From IMG/VR virus record IMGVR_UViG_2703718823_000003: a stretch of 7,738 nucleotides of DNA. One strand, written 5' to 3'. Position numbers and translations under genes: made by a program. How positions within the stretch are numbered: position 1 is the stretch's first letter; every line of letters begins with the position of its first letter. This document shows positions 2,710 to 7,633 of this stretch, piece by piece. Source of the DNA: a virus. Lineage: Duplodnaviria; Heunggongvirae; Uroviricota; Caudoviricetes. The notes below the pieces were generated by a model. That model was given only the letters and a program-made list of their open reading frames with translations, ran no database searches and had not been told where the DNA came from.

Positions 2710-2967
2710 ATGCACACATCAGGAAGATTTAACAAATCACTCAAAAAACGCAGAGACAGAACAGAACCGAAATATCGCGCGTTAGACATGACAGAGCACG
2801 CTTTAAAGGTGGCAATCAGAACGATAGACCGCCACGCGGGGGGAAGGATACGCGAAAGCACATCCCGAACTGATAAGCGCATTCATGACCACGACGGCGG
2901 CAAATTTTGCCACGCTGACAGAGCGGGAGATTGCCGAAGCGGAACAGGTAACAACCATCAACGTTAA
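2710..2967 (+). CDS. hypothetical small basic protein (85 aa), low confidence
   Basis: ATG 2710 with GAGGG about 12 nt upstream. Product is Arg/His/Asp-rich and low in complexity, with several rare codons (AGA, AGG, ATA). It fills the gap between ori and the SSB-like gene. Confidence 0.3.
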   Translation: MHTSGRFNKSLKKRRDRTEPKYRALDMTEHALKVAIRTIDRHAGGRIRESTSRTDKRIHDHDGGKFCHADRAGDCRSGTGNNHQR

Positions 2968-3406: not shown

Positions 3407-3679
3407 ATGGTACATGACCGCATAGCGGAGGAACTCGAGGCAAAAGGCTTTTACCGGAGGGCATCGGCGCGATGGGGTGAAGTCATGCTGCTGGTGGAGA
3501 CAGACAAGGAACGGCATCAGGTTACGATGCGACGGCTGGAATGTTCCAGGAAGGCACAGAAGCCACCGGAGCCGCCGGATAACTTCGGAGACCTGAGAAA
3601 GGCAGTAGATCGCACTTATGCTGAAATGGGTATAGATGGTGTAAGCGATGAAATATGGCGTAATTACCCAGACAGCTAA
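3407..3679 (+). CDS. hypothetical protein (90 aa from ATG 3407)
   Basis: GAGGGGG (3395-3401) sits 5 nt before ATG 3407. The track ORF starts at an upstream GTG (3287) inside the SSB gene, which is less likely. Followed by terminator hairpins. Confidence 0.6.
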   Translation: MVHDRIAEELEAKGFYRRASARWGEVMLLVETDKERHQVTMRRLECSRKAQKPPEPPDNFGDLRKAVDRTYAEMGIDGVSDEIWRNYPDS

Positions 3680-3685
3680 TCAACA

Positions 3686-3708
3686 GCCGGAGTAATCCGG
3701 CTTTTTTG
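3686..3708 (+). terminator. Rho-independent terminator
   Basis: Stem GCCGGA (3686-3691) / TCCGGC (3696-3701), loop GTAA, then a T6 run (3702-3707), immediately after the stop at 3677-3679. Confidence 0.6.
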
Positions 3709-3713
3709 TACCC

Positions 3714-3757
3714 AAAAAAAGCCCGATAAGTACAGGAGGCATCTTATCGGGCTTTTG
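3714..3757. terminator. Second hairpin, possibly a bidirectional terminator
   Basis: 10-bp stem GCCCGATAAG (3721-3730) / CTTATCGGGC (3743-3752) flanked by an A7 run upstream and TTTTG downstream. Confidence 0.45.
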
Positions 3758-3835
3758 CATATGAGGTTTTTTTTGGTGCACTGACACACATGATCGGGAT
3801 CATCATTTCATAATTTGCAACACAACTCAACATCA

Positions 3836-3863
3836 TTGCATAAAATGCAATCATGATTATAAT
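3836..3863 (+). promoter_or_regulatory. Sigma70-like promoter for the capsid operon
   Basis: -35 TTGCAT (3836-3841), 16-bp spacer, -10 TATAAT (3858-3863), about 55 nt upstream of the ATG at 3920. A dyad TTGCAT-AAA-ATGCAA (3836-3850) overlaps the -35, and the palindrome AATCATGATT (3849-3858) lies in the spacer. Confidence 0.45.
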
Positions 3864-3868
3864 CAGAT

Positions 3869-3884
3869 CTGGATGAACATCCAG
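3869..3884. promoter_or_regulatory. Candidate operator (7-bp inverted repeat) just downstream of the -10
   Basis: CTGGATG-AA-CATCCAG, with perfect 7-bp arms, sits at about the predicted transcription start. Confidence 0.3.
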
Positions 3885-3919
3885 TTATGATTTTTTAAGT
3901 CAAAGAGGAATTTCTTACT

Positions 3920-4126
3920 ATGGCTGAAGAGAAAAAAGGCGGTGTTTCGGTGTACATAAGCCCCGACATCGTGAAGGCGCTCAAGGAACGCCACCAGCAG
4001 AACGTAAAAGCAGGCATTGCGGCAGGACTTGATCCGCTGGCGATGGTTGAGCCGTCAACAGGCTGGCAGGTACGCGCCTATTTACGCGCGGCGCTGGGTA
4101 TGAATCAGGTTCACGGGGGTGAATAA
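3920..4126 (+). CDS. hypothetical protein (68 aa), first gene of the capsid operon
   Basis: AAGAGGA upstream of ATG 3920. Its stop overlaps the capsid gene start as TAATG (4124-4128). No recognisable motif. Confidence 0.6.
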   Translation: MAEEKKGGVSVYISPDIVKALKERHQQNVKAGIAAGLDPLAMVEPSTGWQVRAYLRAALGMNQVHGGE

Positions 4127-5181
4127 TGACAGTAAAAGCAATAGCACTTAACACTAACCAGCTTTTTGCGTACCTGAATCGCGAGGATATTGCGGAATTT
4201 AAATTCAGTCCGCTGTTTACCGCGCTGTTTTTCCCGAACGTGGCGACATTCAACACACAGGACATCATGTTAGATAACCTGGATATTGAAGAAGTCACTA
4301 TGTCGGCGTTTTGTTCGCCTATGGTGGGTAGCCAGGTTCAGCGCGATAAAGGGTACGAAACAAGCATTATTCGCCCTGGCTACATGAAGCCAAAACACGA
4401 AATCGATCCATTAAAAACAATAATGCGCATGGCTGGAGAAGATCCAGCACAGCTTAACGACCCTACCTACCGCCGTATGCGCCTGATTACTGGCAACATG
4501 CGCCGCCAGATAAACGCCATTAAAGCGCGCGTGGAATGGCTGGCGGTAAATGCGGTAACGACCGGAAAAAACATCATTGAGGGCGAAGGCATAGAGCGCT
4601 ATGAAATCGACTGGAAGATACCGGAAAAAAACATCATAGAGCAGGCCGACGGTAAAAAATGGTCCGAGCAGGATAAAGACATACACGATCCAATCTATGA
4701 CATTGAGCTATACGCAGATCAGGCAGGTTGCCCCGCCAACGTCATGATTATGGGCGTTGATGTATGGCGCATGTTACGCAGCTTTAAAAAATTCCGTGAG
4801 CTGTACGATCTTTCCCGTGGTTCAGAATCCGCCGCAGAGCTGGCATGTAAAAACCTGGGCGAAGTGGTGAGCTTTAAGGGCTATCTTGGTGATCTGGCCC
4901 TTATCGTCTATTCCGGCAAATACACTGACAGCGACGGTACCGAAAAATATTTCCTTGAGCCTGATTTGCTGGTCCTGGGCAACACCAACAATAAAGGGCT
5001 GGTGGCCTATGGTGCGATTATGGAACAGGAAGCGGTCAGAACTGGCGCAACGCAAAACATGTACTACCCGAAAAACTGGATTGAGGACGGCGATCCGGCG
5101 ATTGAGTACGTGCAGACACACAGCGCACCGCAGCCGGTACCGGCAGATATTCGCAAATTTGTTACCGTCAAAATTGGTTAA
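4126..5181 (+). CDS. Major capsid protein, lambda gpE-like family, 351 aa
   Basis: Translation shares multiple collinear blocks with lambda gpE as recalled: EFKFSPLF..LFF (lambda KFKFDPLF..LFF), PGYMKPKHEI (PGYVKPKHEV), DPTYRRMRLI (DPAYRRRRII), WSEQDKDIHDP.YDIELYA (WSKRDKSTYDP.DDIEAYA), VSFKGYLGDLALIVYSGKY (VSYKGMYGDVAIVVYSGQY), VLGNT..GL.AYG (VLGNT..GL.TYG), YPKNW...GDPA (YPKNW..TGDPA). Length is close to lambda gpE (341 aa). Confidence 0.9.
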   Translation: MTVKAIALNTNQLFAYLNREDIAEFKFSPLFTALFFPNVATFNTQDIMLDNLDIEEVTMSAFCSPMVGSQVQRDKGYETSIIRPGYMKPKHEIDPLKTIMRMAGEDPAQLNDPTYRRMRLITGNMRRQINAIKARVEWLAVNAVTTGKNIIEGEGIERYEIDWKIPEKNIIEQADGKKWSEQDKDIHDPIYDIELYADQAGCPANVMIMGVDVWRMLRSFKKFRELYDLSRGSESAAELACKNLGEVVSFKGYLGDLALIVYSGKYTDSDGTEKYFLEPDLLVLGNTNNKGLVAYGAIMEQEAVRTGATQNMYYPKNWIEDGDPAIEYVQTHSAPQPVPADIRKFVTVKIG

Positions 5182-5192
5182 CGGGGGATTCT

Positions 5193-5528
5193 ATGAACAC
5201 TCCATACGTTGAGTTATTTGCAGGCAGTCAGCAGGTATCAACGACGCTGGTACATTTTGCCGCTGATGCTGGCGTTATTCAGGAATTTACCCCGCTGATG
5301 CTGGCGGACAATGGCGAGTTTAAGCCGTGGGATGGTCAGGAATCTGGCAAGGCTGTTTATCTGACTTCGTATCCTGTGGACACGTCAAAGCAGAAATCAG
5401 CACAGTGTTACAAGACGGGGATATTCAATATTGCCGCCGTTAACTGGCCTGAGAGCGTCGACACCGATGCGAAAAAATGCGCCGCCTTTGCGGGTTCCGG
5501 CGTATCAGTTCAGCCGCTGGCCCGATAA
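5193..5528 (+). CDS. Head decoration protein, lambda gpD-like family, 111 aa
   Basis: Blocks shared with lambda gpD as recalled: TPLML, WDG, YKTGIF (YKSGTF), WPE, KK.AAFAGSG (KKRTAFAGT). Length matches gpD (110 aa). GGGGGA RBS 4 nt before the ATG. Confidence 0.85.
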   Translation: MNTPYVELFAGSQQVSTTLVHFAADAGVIQEFTPLMLADNGEFKPWDGQESGKAVYLTSYPVDTSKQKSAQCYKTGIFNIAAVNWPESVDTDAKKCAAFAGSGVSVQPLAR

Positions 5529-5540
5529 GCAGGGGGAACG

Positions 5541-5954
5541 ATGGCAACGAATGAAAGCATCATGGCGCTACCGCTGGCGAGTAAATTTAAAGAAGAAGCG
5601 CGGGCAATGGCTGACAGAGGTTTATCAACATACGAGGCCGTATATCAACTCAACAAACTGGAAGAGCAGGACAAGCCGCGCGCTGATGCGATTATGGCGC
5701 TTCATGAGCATAAAGACTATCAGCCGCTGTTACGTGCAATGGCAAACGTGCCATGTATTAGCGTCGATAATGCTCGTGAAATCCTGAACATGACCATAGA
5801 GCAGGAGCGCCCAAAGGTTGCACCAGAGCTTACCGCAGCCTTTGAAAACTTTATGGACATGCACAGCCCGCAAGCCGTATCAGCTGGCATGGCATACGAT
5901 GGCAGAAACCAGGGCGATGACGGCGACATCGATCGCATACTGAAAACCATCTGA
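5541..5954 (+). CDS. hypothetical protein (137 aa), last gene of the capsid operon, directly upstream of cos
   Basis: AGGGGGA RBS before ATG 5541. Acidic C-terminus. No motif recognised. Followed by a hairpin and T-run. Confidence 0.65.
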   Translation: MATNESIMALPLASKFKEEARAMADRGLSTYEAVYQLNKLEEQDKPRADAIMALHEHKDYQPLLRAMANVPCISVDNAREILNMTIEQERPKVAPELTAAFENFMDMHSPQAVSAGMAYDGRNQGDDGDIDRILKTI

Positions 5955-5960
5955 GACAAG

Positions 5961-5983
5961 GCCGGAGAAATCCGGCTTTTTTT
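5961..5983 (+). terminator. Rho-independent terminator overlapping the cosQ-side flank
   Basis: Stem GCCGGA (5961-5966) / TCCGGC (5971-5976), loop GAAA, T7 run (5977-5983). The hairpin is nearly identical to the one at 3686-3708. Confidence 0.5.
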
Positions 5984-6211
5984 ACGGGTCCTTTCCGGCA
6001 TATGGACCCGTTACGGGGCGGCGACCTCGCGGTTTTTCGCTATTTATGAGATTTTTTGAGGGGGTGGTTGTTGTTTAATTGTTTGGTATATCTAATTGAT
6101 AAGTAAGGTAAAAATAAAATAAATACAACAACCTTACGATGTATTTTGATGTCATTAATGTGAAAAAATTCAATGATATCAAATGGTTTTGTAAAAACAC
6201 ATGGTTGTTGT
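5984..6211 (+). other. cos site 1 (lambda-type cosQ-flank, cosN, cosB-like region), + orientation
   Basis: TTTACGGGTCCTTTCCGG...GTTACG | GGGCGGCGACCT | CGCGG matches the lambda right-end/cosN/left-end junction as recalled; the 12-nt cohesive-end sequence GGGCGGCGACCT is at 6016-6027. Downstream there are three copies of GGTTGTTGT (6066-6074 direct, 6125-6133 inverted, 6203-6211 direct), spaced like lambda cosB R3/R2/R1. Confidence 0.7.
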
Positions 6212-6404
6212 ATCGCGTATTTGATGGCGTAACAGAAAGTGATTTTTAACTTTACCGCTCTGTAACTACGGATTATTCCATGCTGGCACGGAGAACGGCT
6301 ACGGCATGACGCCACCCAGCCTATACAGAACAGTAAAGCCGATAAATTGTTAATCACGCGCAGCAATGCGTGTGATTTTTGCACACTTCCGGTTAACTGG
6401 TACG

Positions 6405-6590
6405 ATGTCCGGTTTTAGTGTCTGTTTTTTGCGCATGTCCGGTTCATGGAAAGCATGTTTTTATATTTTTCATATGGTTAACTTGCAGAGAAACCGGACA
6501 TGGATCCCGGAAAATTTTCATAAATAGTGAAAACGCGCGAGGTCGCCGCCCCGTAACGGGCCATAATTCCAGGAAGGACCCGACGACACC
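6405..6590 (-). other. cos site 2 (lambda-type cosQ-flank, cosN, cosB-like region), inverted orientation
   Basis: The reverse complement of 6500-6590 reads ..GGGTCCTTCC.GG....CCCGTTACG | GGGCGGCGACCT | CGCGCGTTTTCACTATTTATGAAAATTTTCCGG, almost identical to the lambda cos left end as recalled; cosN is at 6540-6551 on the minus strand. Three copies of ATGTCCGGTT / AACCGGACAT lie at 6492-6501, 6435-6444 and 6405-6414, at R3/R2/R1-like distances. Confidence 0.7.
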
Positions 6591-6615: not shown

Positions 6616-6897
6616 ATGACAGAAGCCGAACTACTGCGATTAATCCGTCGCGTTGCCGGAATCAGCCAGCAGGCTGACGAACAGGCCACGCAGCCGGACA
6701 GCGTGACAGCCGAAAATTATGTGCGTGTTGTTGCGGAGGTGATGCGCCGTGATGGTATCCAGCTTAATGATGCGGATATGCGCGACATACGGATCCGCGT
6801 TCTTGAAATGCTGGCCTACCGTCGCCGCGTGCAGACGTACAGGGAAAAAGCAAAAATAACGTACCAGTGGAAGAAGCCGGAGCGATTACGGCGGTAA
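6616..6897 (+). CDS. hypothetical protein (93 aa), Arg-rich
   Basis: ATG 6616 with a GGGGG stretch about 5 nt upstream. The track ORF extends upstream to GTG 6418, through the cos sequence, which is unlikely. Ends at TAA 6895-6897. No motif recognised. Confidence 0.55.
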   Translation: MTEAELLRLIRRVAGISQQADEQATQPDSVTAENYVRVVAEVMRRDGIQLNDADMRDIRIRVLEMLAYRRRVQTYREKAKITYQWKKPERLRR

Positions 6898-6917
6898 CTT
6901 GCTGATATTCCCGATAA

Positions 6918-7157
6918 CGCAAAATTGCGCTCTGTCCTAACCCGTTGATATTTTCGGGAACAGCCAACGGCTGAGGCCGGAACAACGATTATCTTTCAGA
7001 TAGTCAGAGCTACGAAATTTTCGTAGTTTAATTACTCGCCAGTTTATCGTTAACCCGTTGATATTTTCGGAAACCTCAATTTGAGGAAGTCGGCGCGGTA
7101 ACTCGCTGAACTTTAAGCAAAGCGCAAAATTGCGCTTGCTGAATAATCATTATGATT
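6918..7157. repeat. Cluster of direct repeats and dyad symmetries (candidate regulatory region)
   Basis: 20-bp direct repeat TAACCCGTTGATATTTTCGG at 6938-6957 and 7051-7070. Dyad CGCAA-AA-TTGCG at 6918-6929 and, extended, at 7121-7136. Palindromes CTACGAAA-T-TTTCGTAG (7010-7026), CCTCAA-T-TTGAGG (7074-7086), AATCAT-T-ATGATT (7145-7157). Confidence 0.5.
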
Positions 7158-7213
7158 ACGCAGATGATTAAGGAATGACCGAAGGCGGAAATTCGCCTGT
7201 GGTTAATGGGGGA

Positions 7214-7433
7214 GTTGCAGATCTGCAACTCGACCATGAAACTACGGAAACTACCCGTAGTTTGGGTAGTAAGAGTAACACCCAGATTTTGGGGCTTACT
7301 CGTGATACCCAAATTTGGGGTATCGGTGGCAACCATAACGACTTTCGTTACGGTTGATGCTTTTACCCCATTGGTGGAGGCTGGGCGGCCTGCTGTGGGC
7401 TTTTCCACCATTGGTGGAAAGGTGCAGATCTGG
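7214..7433. other. Palindrome-rich, potentially highly structured segment (candidate ncRNA or protein-recognition DNA)
   Basis: Perfect 16-bp palindrome GTTGCAGATCTGCAAC (7214-7229) with a related copy TGCAGATCTG (7423-7432). Hairpin AAACTACGG / CCGTAGTTT (7239-7263) with a competing ACTACCC / GGGTAGT pairing. Hairpin GATACCC-AAATTTG-GGGTATC (7304-7324). Hairpin TAACGA-CTT-TCGTTA (7336-7350). CCATTGGTGG (7368-7377) can pair with CCACCATTGG (7405-7414). Confidence 0.3.
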
Positions 7434-7633
7434 ATCATCATTACGGTGATCAAGGGTATGTAAAACCCACCAGCCTGATTAACAGTTAACCGGAAAAAAA
7501 TTCCGGTAGGTGGGGATCCCCATATCGACATTAACGCCCCTCATGAATTAGCGCGCTTCCCCCTGGAAAGATGACCCGCCTGTATATTTCTTGTGTCTAT
7601 TTGTTCCACGTTGTTTCATACAGTGCACCGAAC

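What the first reader, a model, noticed from the sequence alone, without database searches (positions are those of the whole stretch)
3836..3884. Near-consensus promoter of the capsid operon embedded in nested dyad symmetries
The -35 TTGCAT and a perfect -10 TATAAT are overlapped by a TTGCAT-AAA-ATGCAA dyad and followed by a 7-bp-arm inverted repeat, CTGGATG-AA-CATCCAG, at the predicted start site. This looks like a strong promoter held off by one or two operator-bound regulators. It is a likely point where helper-phage induction is sensed.
Basis: seen in the sequence. Interest (0 to 1): 0.4.

Follow-up and report, generated by a model that had tools for sequence, protein, structure and literature searches.

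The report
SOS-gated promoter of a satellite's capsid operon
This is the promoter of the four-gene capsid-like operon of an E. coli phage satellite (a PICI of the EcCICFT073 type); the palindrome at its start site looks like a binding site for LexA, the host DNA-damage repressor, and the one upstream belongs to a second operator family also found in T1-like phages.

Summary
TTGCAT (3836-3841), a 16-nt spacer and TATAAT (3858-3863) lie in the gap between the early-operon terminators and a 68-aa ORF, capsid E-like gene, decoration D-like gene and 137-aa ORF.

The block from about -70 to -5 is conserved in more than 50 variants. It also precedes a different capsid module. Published CFT073 RNA-seq shows c1498-c1501 regulated apart from their neighbours.

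The interpretation needs correcting in three ways.

1. CTGGATG-AA-CATCCAG is a CTG-N10-CAG SOS box like those of ruvA and cho. It scores 16.1 bits in the window and 18.6-22.1 bits in relatives; known boxes score 6.6-27.6, and the next best site in the window scores 8.5. It covers about -4 to +16. This suggests LexA repression, as published for SaPI operon I. Binding is not shown.

2. The perfect TTGCAT/ATGCAA dyad is lineage-specific. The conserved feature is two 17-bp units, ATT(G/T)C-N7-GCAA(T/C), 30 bp apart. The same array occurs in T1-like phages. It resembles CytR operators, but the binding protein is unknown.

3. The SOS box tops a 15-nt-arm palindrome followed by a T-run. This looks like a terminator, but only for transcripts that start upstream.

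Neither palindrome occurs in helpers lambda or phi80. Verdict: a new member of a known kind, of moderate interest.

The parts
3685..3708 (+). Intrinsic terminator T1, ending the early/replication operon after the PerC-family gene
   Evidence: stem AGCCGGAGTAATCCGGCT followed by TTTTTTG; folds as predicted.
3717..3756 (.). Hairpin T2 with 14-bp perfect arms. It has a U7 tail on the minus strand and only U4 on the plus strand, so it is mainly a terminator for leftward transcription.
   Evidence: repeat I2; minus-strand fold -28.2 kcal/mol, z -4.3.
3805..3821 (.). Operator-like unit A, ATTTCATAATTTGCAAC, centred at about -58
   Evidence: Half-sites are invariant or nearly so in 52 variants while the N7 spacer varies. 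It aligns with unit 1 of the array in T1-like phages.
3835..3851 (.). Operator-like unit B, ATTGCATAAAATGCAAT. It is centred at about -28 and overlaps the -35 hexamer.
   Evidence: ATTGC and GCAAT are conserved; the inner arm bases vary without compensation.
3836..3841 (+). -35 hexamer TTGCAT (3/6 to consensus). TTGC is invariant in relatives; the commonest form is TTGCAC.
3858..3863 (+). -10 hexamer TATAAT (6/6), 16 nt after the -35 hexamer
   Evidence: Homology with the different capsid module of L007 ends just after this hexamer.
3868..3872 (+). Predicted transcription start zone. Inferred, not mapped.
   Evidence: Lies 5-9 nt downstream of the -10 hexamer. This is inference from standard sigma-70 promoter geometry.
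3867..3886 (.). It spans about -4 to +16.
   Evidence: 16.1 bits in the window and 18.6-22.1 bits in relatives. CTG and CAG are invariant. Random frequency is 2.5e-6 per position.
3861..3896 (+). Extended palindrome AATCAGATCTGGATG-AA-CATCCAGTTATGATT plus a T-run. Terminator-like on the plus strand only.
   Evidence: -11.1 kcal/mol here, -19.8 kcal/mol with z -6.0 in CFT073. Covariation.
3904..3909 (+). Ribosome-binding site AGAGGA of the first gene
   Evidence: invariant.
3920..4126 (+). First gene: 68-aa protein of unknown function (phrog_3255), equivalent to c1498 of CFT073
   Evidence: Structure model and fold search gave no informative match.
4126..5181 (+). Major capsid protein E-like gene (equivalent to c1499)
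   Evidence: PF03864, E 2e-49.
5193..5528 (+). Head decoration protein D-like gene (equivalent to c1500)
   Evidence: PF02924, E 6e-18.
5541..5954 (+). 137-aa gene (equivalent to c1501). Resembles the C-terminal, scaffold part of head maturation proteases.
   Evidence: phrog_1999, and phrog_53 at 1e-10.
5961..5983 (+). Terminator-like hairpin GCCGGA-GAAA-TCCGGC plus T7, ending the operon
   Evidence: Sequence printed. Agrees with the RNA-seq boundary between c1501 and c1503.

Best explanation
The window is part of an E. coli phage-inducible chromosomal island of the EcCICFT073 type. Bases 3800-3896 are the control region of its four-gene capsid-like operon.

RNA polymerase with sigma-70 would use TTGCAT-16-TATAAT and start near 3870. 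Two kinds of operators are built into this promoter.

1. A 20-bp SOS box (3867-3886, CTG-N10-CAG) lies across the start site. Host LexA would bind it and damp transcription. RecA-stimulated LexA cleavage during DNA damage would release it. That is the same signal that induces lambdoid helper prophages.

2. Two 17-bp palindromic units, ATT(G/T)C-N7-GCAA(T/C), lie 30 bp apart. Unit B covers the -35 hexamer. They would bind a second, unidentified dimeric protein. The best named candidate is host CytR. A regulator encoded by T1-like phages is the alternative.

Shown: the sequence features, their conservation, the statistical match to LexA boxes, and separate regulation of the homologous CFT073 operon.

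Inferred: the start site, LexA binding, the direction of regulation, and the identity of the second protein.
For: Identity of the element: 98.8% identical to an E. coli island beside tRNA-Pro, and 90% identical to the CFT073 island.

Promoter:
- It is the only TTG-N19-21-TATAAT match in the window.
- It lies between terminators T1/T2 and the first gene.
- The block from -70 to -5 is kept in 53 variants.
- The same block is joined to a different leader and an HK97-type capsid module in L007, with homology ending just after TATAAT.
- CFT073 RNA-seq gives log2 fold changes of c1498 2.24, c1499 2.05, c1500 1.45 and c1501 1.17. The upstream genes c1493-c1497 and downstream c1503 and c1505 do not change (PMC12890032).

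LexA box:
- I built a weight matrix from the 18 boxes in Table 4 of PMC3009722.
- The window site scores 16.1 bits, CFT073 20.2 bits, and other variants 18.6-22.1 bits. Known boxes score 6.6-27.6 when each is left out in turn.
- The next best site in the window scores 8.45 bits. The random frequency is 2.5e-6 per position.
- A heterology-index analogue gives 9.2 for the window and 6.0-7.0 for relatives, against 0.3-8.5 for known boxes that were part of the matrix.
- Positive control: the annotated dinL LexA site of phi80 scores 25.9, and nothing else in phi80 exceeds 9.1.
- CTG and CAG are invariant. Changes elsewhere are A/T swaps in the centre, or move towards the consensus (CCAG to ACAG).
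- The same islands carry a second LexA-like box between int and alpA, at 16.9-19.0 bits. A 50-kb prophage peaks at 11.0 bits.
- Precedent: SaPI operon I is controlled by LexA (Ubeda 2007, cited in the papers read).

Second operator family:
- The half-sites are conserved and the spacers vary, in both the islands and three Drexlerviridae phages.
- The phage genome has 8 motif hits against 0.44 in shuffles.
- The units match published CytR operator forms.
Against: - No start site, LexA binding or SOS induction has been measured for this promoter.
- The window's own box has T instead of A at box position 2 and scores at the low end.
- One lineage (L006 type) and the cf-PICI leader (L007 and Sakai Sp7) lack the box, so LexA control is not universal.
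- The 37 C induction in CFT073 occurs without SOS gene induction, so at least one other input exists.
- The palindrome extends beyond the 20-mer, with compensatory changes that LexA does not explain.
- For CytR, no convincing flanking CRP sites were found (best 14/22). The match was also found after the motif was defined, among many factors considered.
Confidence: 0.55

Rival explanations
1. The downstream palindrome acts as RNA, not as a protein operator. The 15-nt-arm hairpin plus U-run would be an intrinsic terminator that stops transcription entering from upstream. The promoter lies inside it, so its own transcripts lack the 5' arm and escape. This can coexist with LexA binding.
For: - The scan lists it as terminator-like.
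- The CFT073 version is a perfect 14-bp stem, -19.8 kcal/mol, z -6.0, followed directly by U-rich sequence. The minus strand has no U-run.
- 95% of cells are paired. Three pairs show changes on both sides (CG/UA; UA/GC/CG). There are 11 G-U cells that would be C-A on the other strand. None of 500 shuffles reaches the observed covariation score.
- The L006 type keeps the outer stem and the T-run while the inner dyad is replaced by a loop, changing the arm spacing by 5 bp.
Against: - Two terminators already lie upstream.
- With a start near 3870, the promoter's own RNA holds only a 5-6 bp hairpin, so no role in cis follows.
- Pair 19-40 is unpaired in 11 of 28 variants, and the window's own stem is weak at -11.1 kcal/mol.
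- The sequences are closely related, so the shuffle control overstates significance.
- The L006-type fold is not better than shuffles (z -1.7).
Confidence: 0.3
2. Units A and B are operators of the host nucleoside regulator CytR. The capsid operon would then respond to cytidine and cAMP status.
For: Published operator forms are TGCAA-N2-3-TTGCA, TTGCAA and AYGTGCAAC-N10-13-GTTRCATT (PMC3454398).
- The island has AATTTGCAAC-N13-ATTGCATA (8/9 and 6/8). The 13-nt spacing is invariant.
- The phage array has ACGTGCAAT-N13-ATTGCAGT (8/9 and 6/8) and TGCAA-TA-TTGCT (9/10).
Against: - CytR normally needs an adjacent CRP site, and none is convincing here.
- The conserved half-site is longer (ATCATTGCA) than the CytR octamer.
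- Within each unit the orientation is opposite to the classical TGCAA...TTGCA form.
- The match was found after the motif was defined.
- There is no obvious biological reason for T1-like phages or a satellite to use CytR.
Confidence: 0.25
3. Units A and B, and possibly the palindrome across the -10 hexamer, are operators for a regulator encoded by a mobile element. One candidate is an early protein of T1-like (Drexlerviridae) phages. The satellite's capsid operon would then respond to infection by such phages.
For: - The same array, with the same 30-bp phasing, lies in a 900-bp gap between divergent blocks of small, early-looking genes in phiA2-1, vB_EcoS_FP and GaoY1-9D.
- A conserved, unannotated 74-aa ORF (phrog_4344) lies just downstream of it.
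- The motif is absent from lambda and phi80.
Against: - No protein is shared between the island and the phage.
- The 74-aa ORF matches no DNA-binding family.
- T1-like phages are not known helpers of these islands.
- The BLAST E-value is marginal (9e-3).
Confidence: 0.2
4. Helper Q-type antitermination: a constitutive promoter followed by a terminator that only helper-modified RNA polymerase reads through, as at lambda PR'/tR'.
For: - A terminator-like hairpin lies just downstream of a promoter.
- ATTGCATAAAAT resembles ATTGAATAAAAT in lambda PR'.
- phi80 pR' also uses TTGCAT as its -35 hexamer.
Against: - The similarity to lambda is 7 nt out of register with the -10 hexamer.
- The 5' arm of the hairpin overlaps the -10 hexamer, so it is not transcribed from this promoter.
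- There is no match to the annotated phi80 Q site.
- The operon is expressed without a helper.
Confidence: 0.04
5. The palindromes are chance features of an A+T-rich spacer and have no function beyond the promoter hexamers.
For: The region is 33% G+C. A single 7-nt-arm repeat appears in about 9% of shuffles.
Against: - Four inverted repeats are present against 0.4 expected.
- The half-sites are invariant while the spacers vary, across islands and phages.
- The LexA-matrix score has a chance frequency of 2.5e-6 per position.
Confidence: 0.04

Closest known systems
LexA-controlled promoter of SaPI operon I (Staphylococcus aureus pathogenicity islands; Ubeda et al. 2007, Mol Microbiol 65:41)
   Same: Both are phage satellites whose late (packaging or capsid) operon has its own promoter carrying a host LexA box. 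SOS would derepress it in parallel with helper prophage induction.
   Different: - The host and the LexA motif differ: Gram-positive CGAAC-N4-GTTCG type (from my own knowledge) against the E. coli CTG-N10-CAG type.
- The islands are unrelated in sequence.
- LexA control is experimentally shown for SaPI and only predicted here.
- This operon is dispensable for transfer in CFT073, whereas operon I is needed for SaPI-specific packaging.
E. coli SOS boxes of ruvAB and cho (the CTGG...CCAG subtype)
   Same: Same CTGGAT-N4-ATCCAG or CTGG-N8-CCAG core: ruvA is CGCTGGATATCTATCCAGCA and cho is CACTGGATAGATAACCAGCA. The matrix scores are similar.
   Different: - This site has a less A/T-rich centre (GAAC).
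- It is embedded in a longer palindrome with a T-run.
- It lies on a mobile element.
- Binding is untested.
CytR operators of the E. coli nucleoside regulon (deoP2, udp, cdd, tsx)
   Same: Octamer-type half-sites around TTGCA/TGCAA, including the inverted form with a 10-13 nt spacer.
   Different: - No flanking CRP sites.
- The conserved half-site is longer.
- Four half-sites are arranged as two 17-bp palindromes.
- The same array occurs in virulent phages.
Operator arrays of temperate phages (lambda OR1-3 and phi80 CI operators)
   Same: Several palindromic units of about 17-19 bp, phased on one face of the helix and overlapping promoter hexamers.
   Different: The sequences are unrelated to lambda or phi80 operators. 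No repressor gene of the cI/cro type lies beside them in the island.
Lambda PR'-qut-tR' late control
   Same: A promoter closely followed by a terminator-like hairpin in front of late genes.
   Different: The hairpin overlaps the -10 hexamer and the start site instead of lying downstream. The register of the similar sequence differs.

Membership tests
Sigma-70 promoter | -10 hexamer close to TATAAT | tested here: met
   TATAAT at 3858-3863, 6/6. Kept in nearly all variants; the exceptions are TAAAAT, TGTAAT and TATAAC.
Sigma-70 promoter | -35 hexamer close to TTGACA, 16-18 nt upstream | tested here: inconclusive
   The spacer is 16 nt. The hexamer TTGCAT matches at 3/6, below the scan's threshold. 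TTGC is invariant.
Sigma-70 promoter | A transcript starts 5-9 nt after the -10 hexamer | not testable with these tools
   No 5'-end data were found. Indirect support: c1498-c1501 form a separately regulated unit in CFT073.
LexA (SOS) box, E. coli type | CTG-N10-CAG core within a 20-bp palindrome | tested here: met
   ATCTGGATGAACATCCAGTT at 3867-3886. CTG and CAG are invariant in 28 variants.
LexA (SOS) box, E. coli type | Overall similarity within the range of proven boxes | tested here: met
   16.1 bits in the window and 18.6-22.1 bits in relatives, against 6.6-27.6 for 18 known boxes left out in turn. The phi80 dinL control scores 25.9.
LexA (SOS) box, E. coli type | Overlaps promoter elements or the start site, so that binding blocks RNA polymerase | tested here: met
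   The box begins 4 nt after the -10 hexamer and spans the predicted start. This depends on the inferred start site.
LexA (SOS) box, E. coli type | LexA binds, and the gene is induced by DNA damage in a recA/lexA-dependent way | not testable with these tools
   No data were found. In the 37 C data set the operon rises while sulA, dinI and umuD do not. That shows another input; it does not test LexA.
Intrinsic (rho-independent) terminator | Stable stem-loop followed at once by a U-run | tested here: met
   The stem at 3861-3892 is followed by TTTT. It is strong in CFT073 (-19.8 kcal/mol) and weak in this window (-11.1 kcal/mol).
Intrinsic (rho-independent) terminator | The whole hairpin is transcribed | tested here: inconclusive
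   Not from this promoter, because the 5' arm overlaps the -10 hexamer. It is possible only for transcripts from upstream, which must first pass T1 and T2.
CytR operator | Repeats of the octamer GTTGCATT/AATGCAAC at permitted spacings | tested here: met
   AATTTGCAAC-N13-ATTGCATA matches at 8/9 and 6/8, compared with the consensus quoted.
CytR operator | At least one CRP site within about 5 bp of the operator | tested here: not met
   The best CRP match in 3795-3900 is 14/22, with a core of 6/10.
Q-dependent late promoter (lambda PR' type) | Q-binding element between the -35 and -10 hexamers, and a terminator downstream of the start | tested here: not met
   The sequence similar to lambda is 7 nt out of register. 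The hairpin overlaps the -10 hexamer. The phi80 Q site has no counterpart.

The most novel reading that the evidence does not exclude
The control region may be a layered switch. One palindrome would serve both as the LexA operator and as the top of a terminator that shields the operon from read-through. The paired upstream operators would be shared with virulent T1-like phages. The satellite's capsid operon would then respond to a regulator of a phage family not known to be its helper, or both elements would exploit an unrecognised host regulator, possibly CytR acting without CRP.
Probability: 0.15. Interest if true: 0.6.

Novelty: new member of a known kind. Interest (0 to 1): 0.4.

Why it matters
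How Gram-negative PICIs time their late genes is not described in the papers I could read. Those papers cover AlpA and the early genes only.

A LexA box on the late promoter, and LexA-like boxes between int and alpA, would link these islands directly to the SOS response. That would parallel the unrelated staphylococcal islands and would be a case of convergence.

It would also matter for engineered EcCICFT073 vectors, in which c1498-c1501 is the slot used for cargo such as cas9 or melA. Cargo left under this promoter would be induced by DNA damage and by temperature.

The operator family shared with T1-like phages is a concrete, testable lead to an unknown regulator.

Tried and rejected
- **Species-representative genomes.** A scan with a profile of the 68-aa protein and a scan with the promoter pattern both found nothing.
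- **Metagenome scan.** My pattern was too loose. Only 7 of the loci held were homologues, and they added nothing new.
- **Viral scan for two phased units.** It was swamped by a protein-coding 30-nt repeat of the KIAxDAI type. Only a few T1-like contigs were relevant.
- **Rfam.** No credible family. The one hit with E below 0.01 is far below its gathering score and is driven by terminator T2.
- **68-aa first gene as an autoregulator.** The AlphaFold model (pLDDT 74.5) shows a beta-hairpin plus two helices. It has no PDB match with E below 1.
- **PerC-family gene upstream as the activator.** It is absent from islands that keep the promoter, so it cannot be required.
- **Other copies of the palindromes in the island.** None were found, apart from one 17-mer inside a coding region.
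- **Lambda PR' mimicry.** The similar sequence is out of register.
- **Consensus counts for other factors.** Fur, CRP, FNR, IHF, ArgR, Fis, CpxR, OmpR, H-NS and NarL were no better here than elsewhere in the window.
- **O157 Sakai.** Sp7, a cf-PICI, has a different promoter, and Sp6 lacks the locus. The published sulfamethoxazole-trimethoprim transcriptome could therefore not be used.
- **X/Y palindrome across the -10 hexamer (TGATTA/TAATCA).** Its covariation is not above the shuffles.
- **Proteins shared between the island and phage phiA2-1.** None. The phage's 74-aa ORF matches no Pfam family.

Full report
**What the window is.** The window is 98.8% identical to an island inserted next to tRNA-Pro in E. 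coli STEC2018-607. It is about 90% identical to the EcCICFT073 island of strain CFT073, and 2305 of 5426 complete E. coli genomes hold related DNA. On the plus strand it encodes, in order:
- a DUF4222 protein (RgdR type)
- a D5/P4-type primase
- SSB
- a PerC-family protein
- after a 240-nt gap, a 68-aa protein of unknown function
- a lambda E-like major capsid protein
- a lambda D-like decoration protein
- a 137-aa protein resembling the scaffold end of head proteases

It is therefore a Gram-negative phage-inducible chromosomal island (PICI). The finding lies in the gap before its late, capsid-like genes.

**Checking the observation.** Two details need correcting.

First, the -10 hexamer is perfect, but the -35 hexamer TTGCAT matches TTGACA at only three positions. 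That is why the consensus scan did not list the site.

Second, both dyads are larger than described. The first has perfect 7-nt arms (ATTGCAT/ATGCAAT) and 11-nt arms at 10/11. The second extends to 15-nt arms at 13/15 (3861-3892) and is followed by a T-run. A 20-nt direct repeat lies 30 bp upstream of the first dyad.

On chance alone the promoter match is unremarkable: a quarter of dinucleotide shuffles of the window have one. The 140 nt before the start codon, however, hold four distinct inverted repeats with arms of at least 6 nt, against 0.4 expected.

**Evidence that it is a promoter.**
- The site lies just downstream of two terminators and 57 nt upstream of the first start codon. T1 ends the early operon. 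T2 has its long U-run on the minus strand.
- I collected 53 distinct versions of the region from complete E. coli genomes and IMG/VR contigs. Sequence upstream of about 3800 falls into three unrelated types. From 3800 to the -10 hexamer the block is conserved throughout. In one island (L007) the same block is joined, just after TATAAT, to a different leader and an HK97-type capsid and protease module. Recombination thus treats -70 to -5 as a cassette.
- Published RNA-seq of CFT073 shows c1498, c1499, c1500 and c1501 rising by log2 2.24, 2.05, 1.45 and 1.17 on a shift from 23 to 37 C. The five upstream genes and the two downstream genes do not change (PMC12890032).
- A terminator-like hairpin at 5961-5983 closes the unit.

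So a separately controlled transcription unit starts between the PerC gene and the 68-aa gene. No mapped 5' end exists, and the start near 3870 is inferred from promoter geometry.

**The downstream dyad is an SOS box.** CTGGATG-AA-CATCCAG has the CTG-N10-CAG core of E. coli LexA sites. It is nearly the ruvA box (CGCTGGATATCTATCCAGCA) and resembles the cho box.

I built a weight matrix from the 18 boxes listed in Table 4 of PMC3009722 and scored the site:

| Site | Score (bits) |
|---|---|
| Window, ATCTGGATGAACATCCAGTT (3867-3886) | 16.1 |
| CFT073 version | 20.2 |
| Other variants | 18.6-22.1 |
| 18 known boxes, each left out in turn | 6.6-27.6 |
| Next best site in the window | 8.45 |

A score of 16.1 or more arises at 2.5e-6 per random position. 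As a control, the annotated dinL LexA site of phi80 scores 25.9, nothing else in phi80 exceeds 9.1, and lambda peaks at 15.0.

Across variants the CTG and CAG triplets never change. The changes seen are A/T swaps in the centre (AA to TT or TA, G to A), or a move towards the consensus (CCAG to ACAG). The box would cover about -4 to +16, a repressing position.

The same islands also carry a second LexA-like box between int and alpA, outside this window: 16.9 bits in the near-identical island, 18.1 in CFT073 and 19.0 in Sakai Sp7. A 50-kb lambdoid prophage peaks at 11.0.

LexA control of a satellite's late operon has a precedent in staphylococcal islands (Ubeda 2007, cited in the papers read). 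I found no paper reporting it for E. coli islands.

**Limits of the LexA reading.**
- Binding and SOS induction are untested.
- One lineage (L006 type) and the cf-PICI leaders lack the box.
- The 37 C induction in CFT073 happens while sulA, dinI and umuD stay flat, so the promoter has at least one further input. The region is 33% G+C, which would suit H-NS-type silencing, but I did not test that.
- The ISME J 2018 paper reports that alpA expression depends on the helper and not on SOS. SOS alone does not set off the island.

**The palindrome is longer than a LexA box.** In CFT073 the sequence AATCATAACTGGATG-AA-CATCCAGTTATGATT is a perfect 32-bp palindrome. As RNA it folds at -19.8 kcal/mol (z -6.0) and is followed by U-rich sequence on the plus strand only. 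The window's copy has two mismatches and folds at -11.1 kcal/mol.

On 28 distinct variants, 95% of cells pair. Three pairs outside the LexA 20-mer show changes on both sides, and 11 cells are G-U. No shuffle reaches the observed covariation, although the sequences are close relatives and this control is lenient. The L006 lineage keeps the outer stem and the T-run but replaces the inner dyad with a loop. That shifts the arms by 5 bp, which a protein dimer would not tolerate.

This points to selection for a hairpin, that is, a terminator. The 5' arm overlaps the -10 hexamer, so only transcripts from upstream would contain the whole hairpin. The promoter's own transcripts would escape it. I rate this insulating role as possible (0.3) and compatible with LexA binding.

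**The upstream dyad belongs to a second operator family.** The inner arm bases vary on one side without compensation, so an RNA stem is not supported.

What is conserved is ATTGC-N7-GCAAT (unit B, 3835-3851) and, 30 bp upstream, ATTTC-N7-GCAAC (unit A, 3805-3821). The 13-nt gap between them is invariant in length.

A distant BLAST search of phage genomes gave a marginal hit (E 9e-3, 81% over 50 nt) to T1-like Drexlerviridae. Reading those loci showed the same array with the same phasing. It is expanded to four units, arranged as u1-13-u2u3-13-u4. It lies in a 900-bp gap between divergent blocks of small genes.

Across islands and phages the half-sites are invariant and the spacers differ, which is the usual signature of a dimeric DNA-binding protein. 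The phage genome has 8 motif hits against 0.44 in shuffles. Lambda and phi80, the known helpers, have none. The island and the phage share no protein.

**Who might bind units A and B.** The half-sites fit published descriptions of CytR operators, including AYGTGCAAC-N10-13-GTTRCATT (8/9 and 6/8 with N13). However, there is no adjacent CRP site, and I found the match after defining the motif. CytR is therefore a candidate only. A regulator encoded by T1-like phages is the main alternative. The 74-aa ORF next to the phage array is a conserved phage family with no recognisable DNA-binding domain.

**Verdict.**
- There is very probably a promoter here, and it carries two kinds of operator.
- The one at the start site is most likely a host LexA box, so the signal sensed would be DNA damage rather than the helper phage.
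- The upstream one belongs to a family whose binding protein is unknown.
- The feature is a new member of a known kind: an SOS-controlled late promoter of a phage satellite.
- The link to T1-like phages and the promoter-inside-a-terminator layout are the less ordinary points.

Noticed in passing
L001 4021-4040; L002 3353-3372; L092 (Sakai Sp7) 2261-2280 and 2150-2169. All lie outside the window, in the int-alpA intergenic regions of related islands.: Strong LexA-like boxes sit just after int and upstream of alpA: AGCTGTACAGAAAACCAGTA at 16.9 bits, TACTGTTTTTTTATACACTG at 18.1 and TACTGGTTTTTTATACACTA at 19.0. Islands that lack the box at the late promoter also have one, up to 24.8 bits in L072. 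This contrasts with the published statement that alpA expression is independent of SOS.
   Followed up: partly
window 3712-3830, minus strand: Hairpin T2 (3717-3756) has a U7 tail on the minus strand and only U4 on the plus strand, so something is probably transcribed leftward into it. A weak candidate leftward promoter is TTGAGT (3830-3825), a 17-nt spacer, then TGaAATGAT (3807-3802). It would give an RNA of about 85 nt whose body differs between island lineages. In the L006 type the -35 hexamer is TTGACT.
   Followed up: partly
L237 2500-2600, equal to phage phiA2-1 OR861626 about 37540-37640; also L238 and L239: T1-like Drexlerviridae phages carry a symmetric array of four 17-bp palindromes, ATTGC-N7-GCAAY, between divergent blocks of small genes. 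An unannotated, conserved 74-aa ORF (phrog_4344) lies about 100 nt downstream.
   Followed up: partly
window 6890-7440: This region is dense in repeats. There are three copies of a 24-nt direct repeat (TAACCCGTTGATATTTTCGGGAAC), several motifs repeated at about 205-bp spacing, and large palindromes with arms of 19-33 nt. It lies after the last conserved gene (6616-6897), so it may be the island's cos/packaging region or its end.
   Followed up: no
window 5985-6420: The homologue of CFT073 c1503 (rppA, which redirects helper packaging) is missing. Only its last 22 codons remain, inverted, at 6320-6255. They lie inside a segment of 33-45% G+C that has no convincing gene.
   Followed up: partly
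window 3790-3803 and 3866-3869: The palindrome ATGATC-GG-GATCAT, just upstream of unit A, holds two Dam GATC sites. The window's own variant of the hairpin arm (AGATCT) adds a third GATC, at the edge of the LexA-like box. None of these is conserved in other lineages.
   Followed up: no
window 2710-2967, equal to L001 8684-8963: RefSeq marks the small gene between the primase and SSB as frameshifted in the near-identical island. The presumed replication origin should lie in the 42% G+C stretch at 2424-2700.
   Followed up: no
window 3407-3679, compared with L004, L005 and L006: The PerC-family gene just upstream of the promoter is absent from several islands that keep the same promoter cassette. 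It is therefore not an obligatory partner of this promoter.
   Followed up: yes
L362 (lambda) 38660-38679: TACTGGATCTATCAACAGGA, between cII and O of lambda, scores 15.0 bits with the LexA matrix. This is the highest score in lambda and is probably incidental.
   Followed up: no
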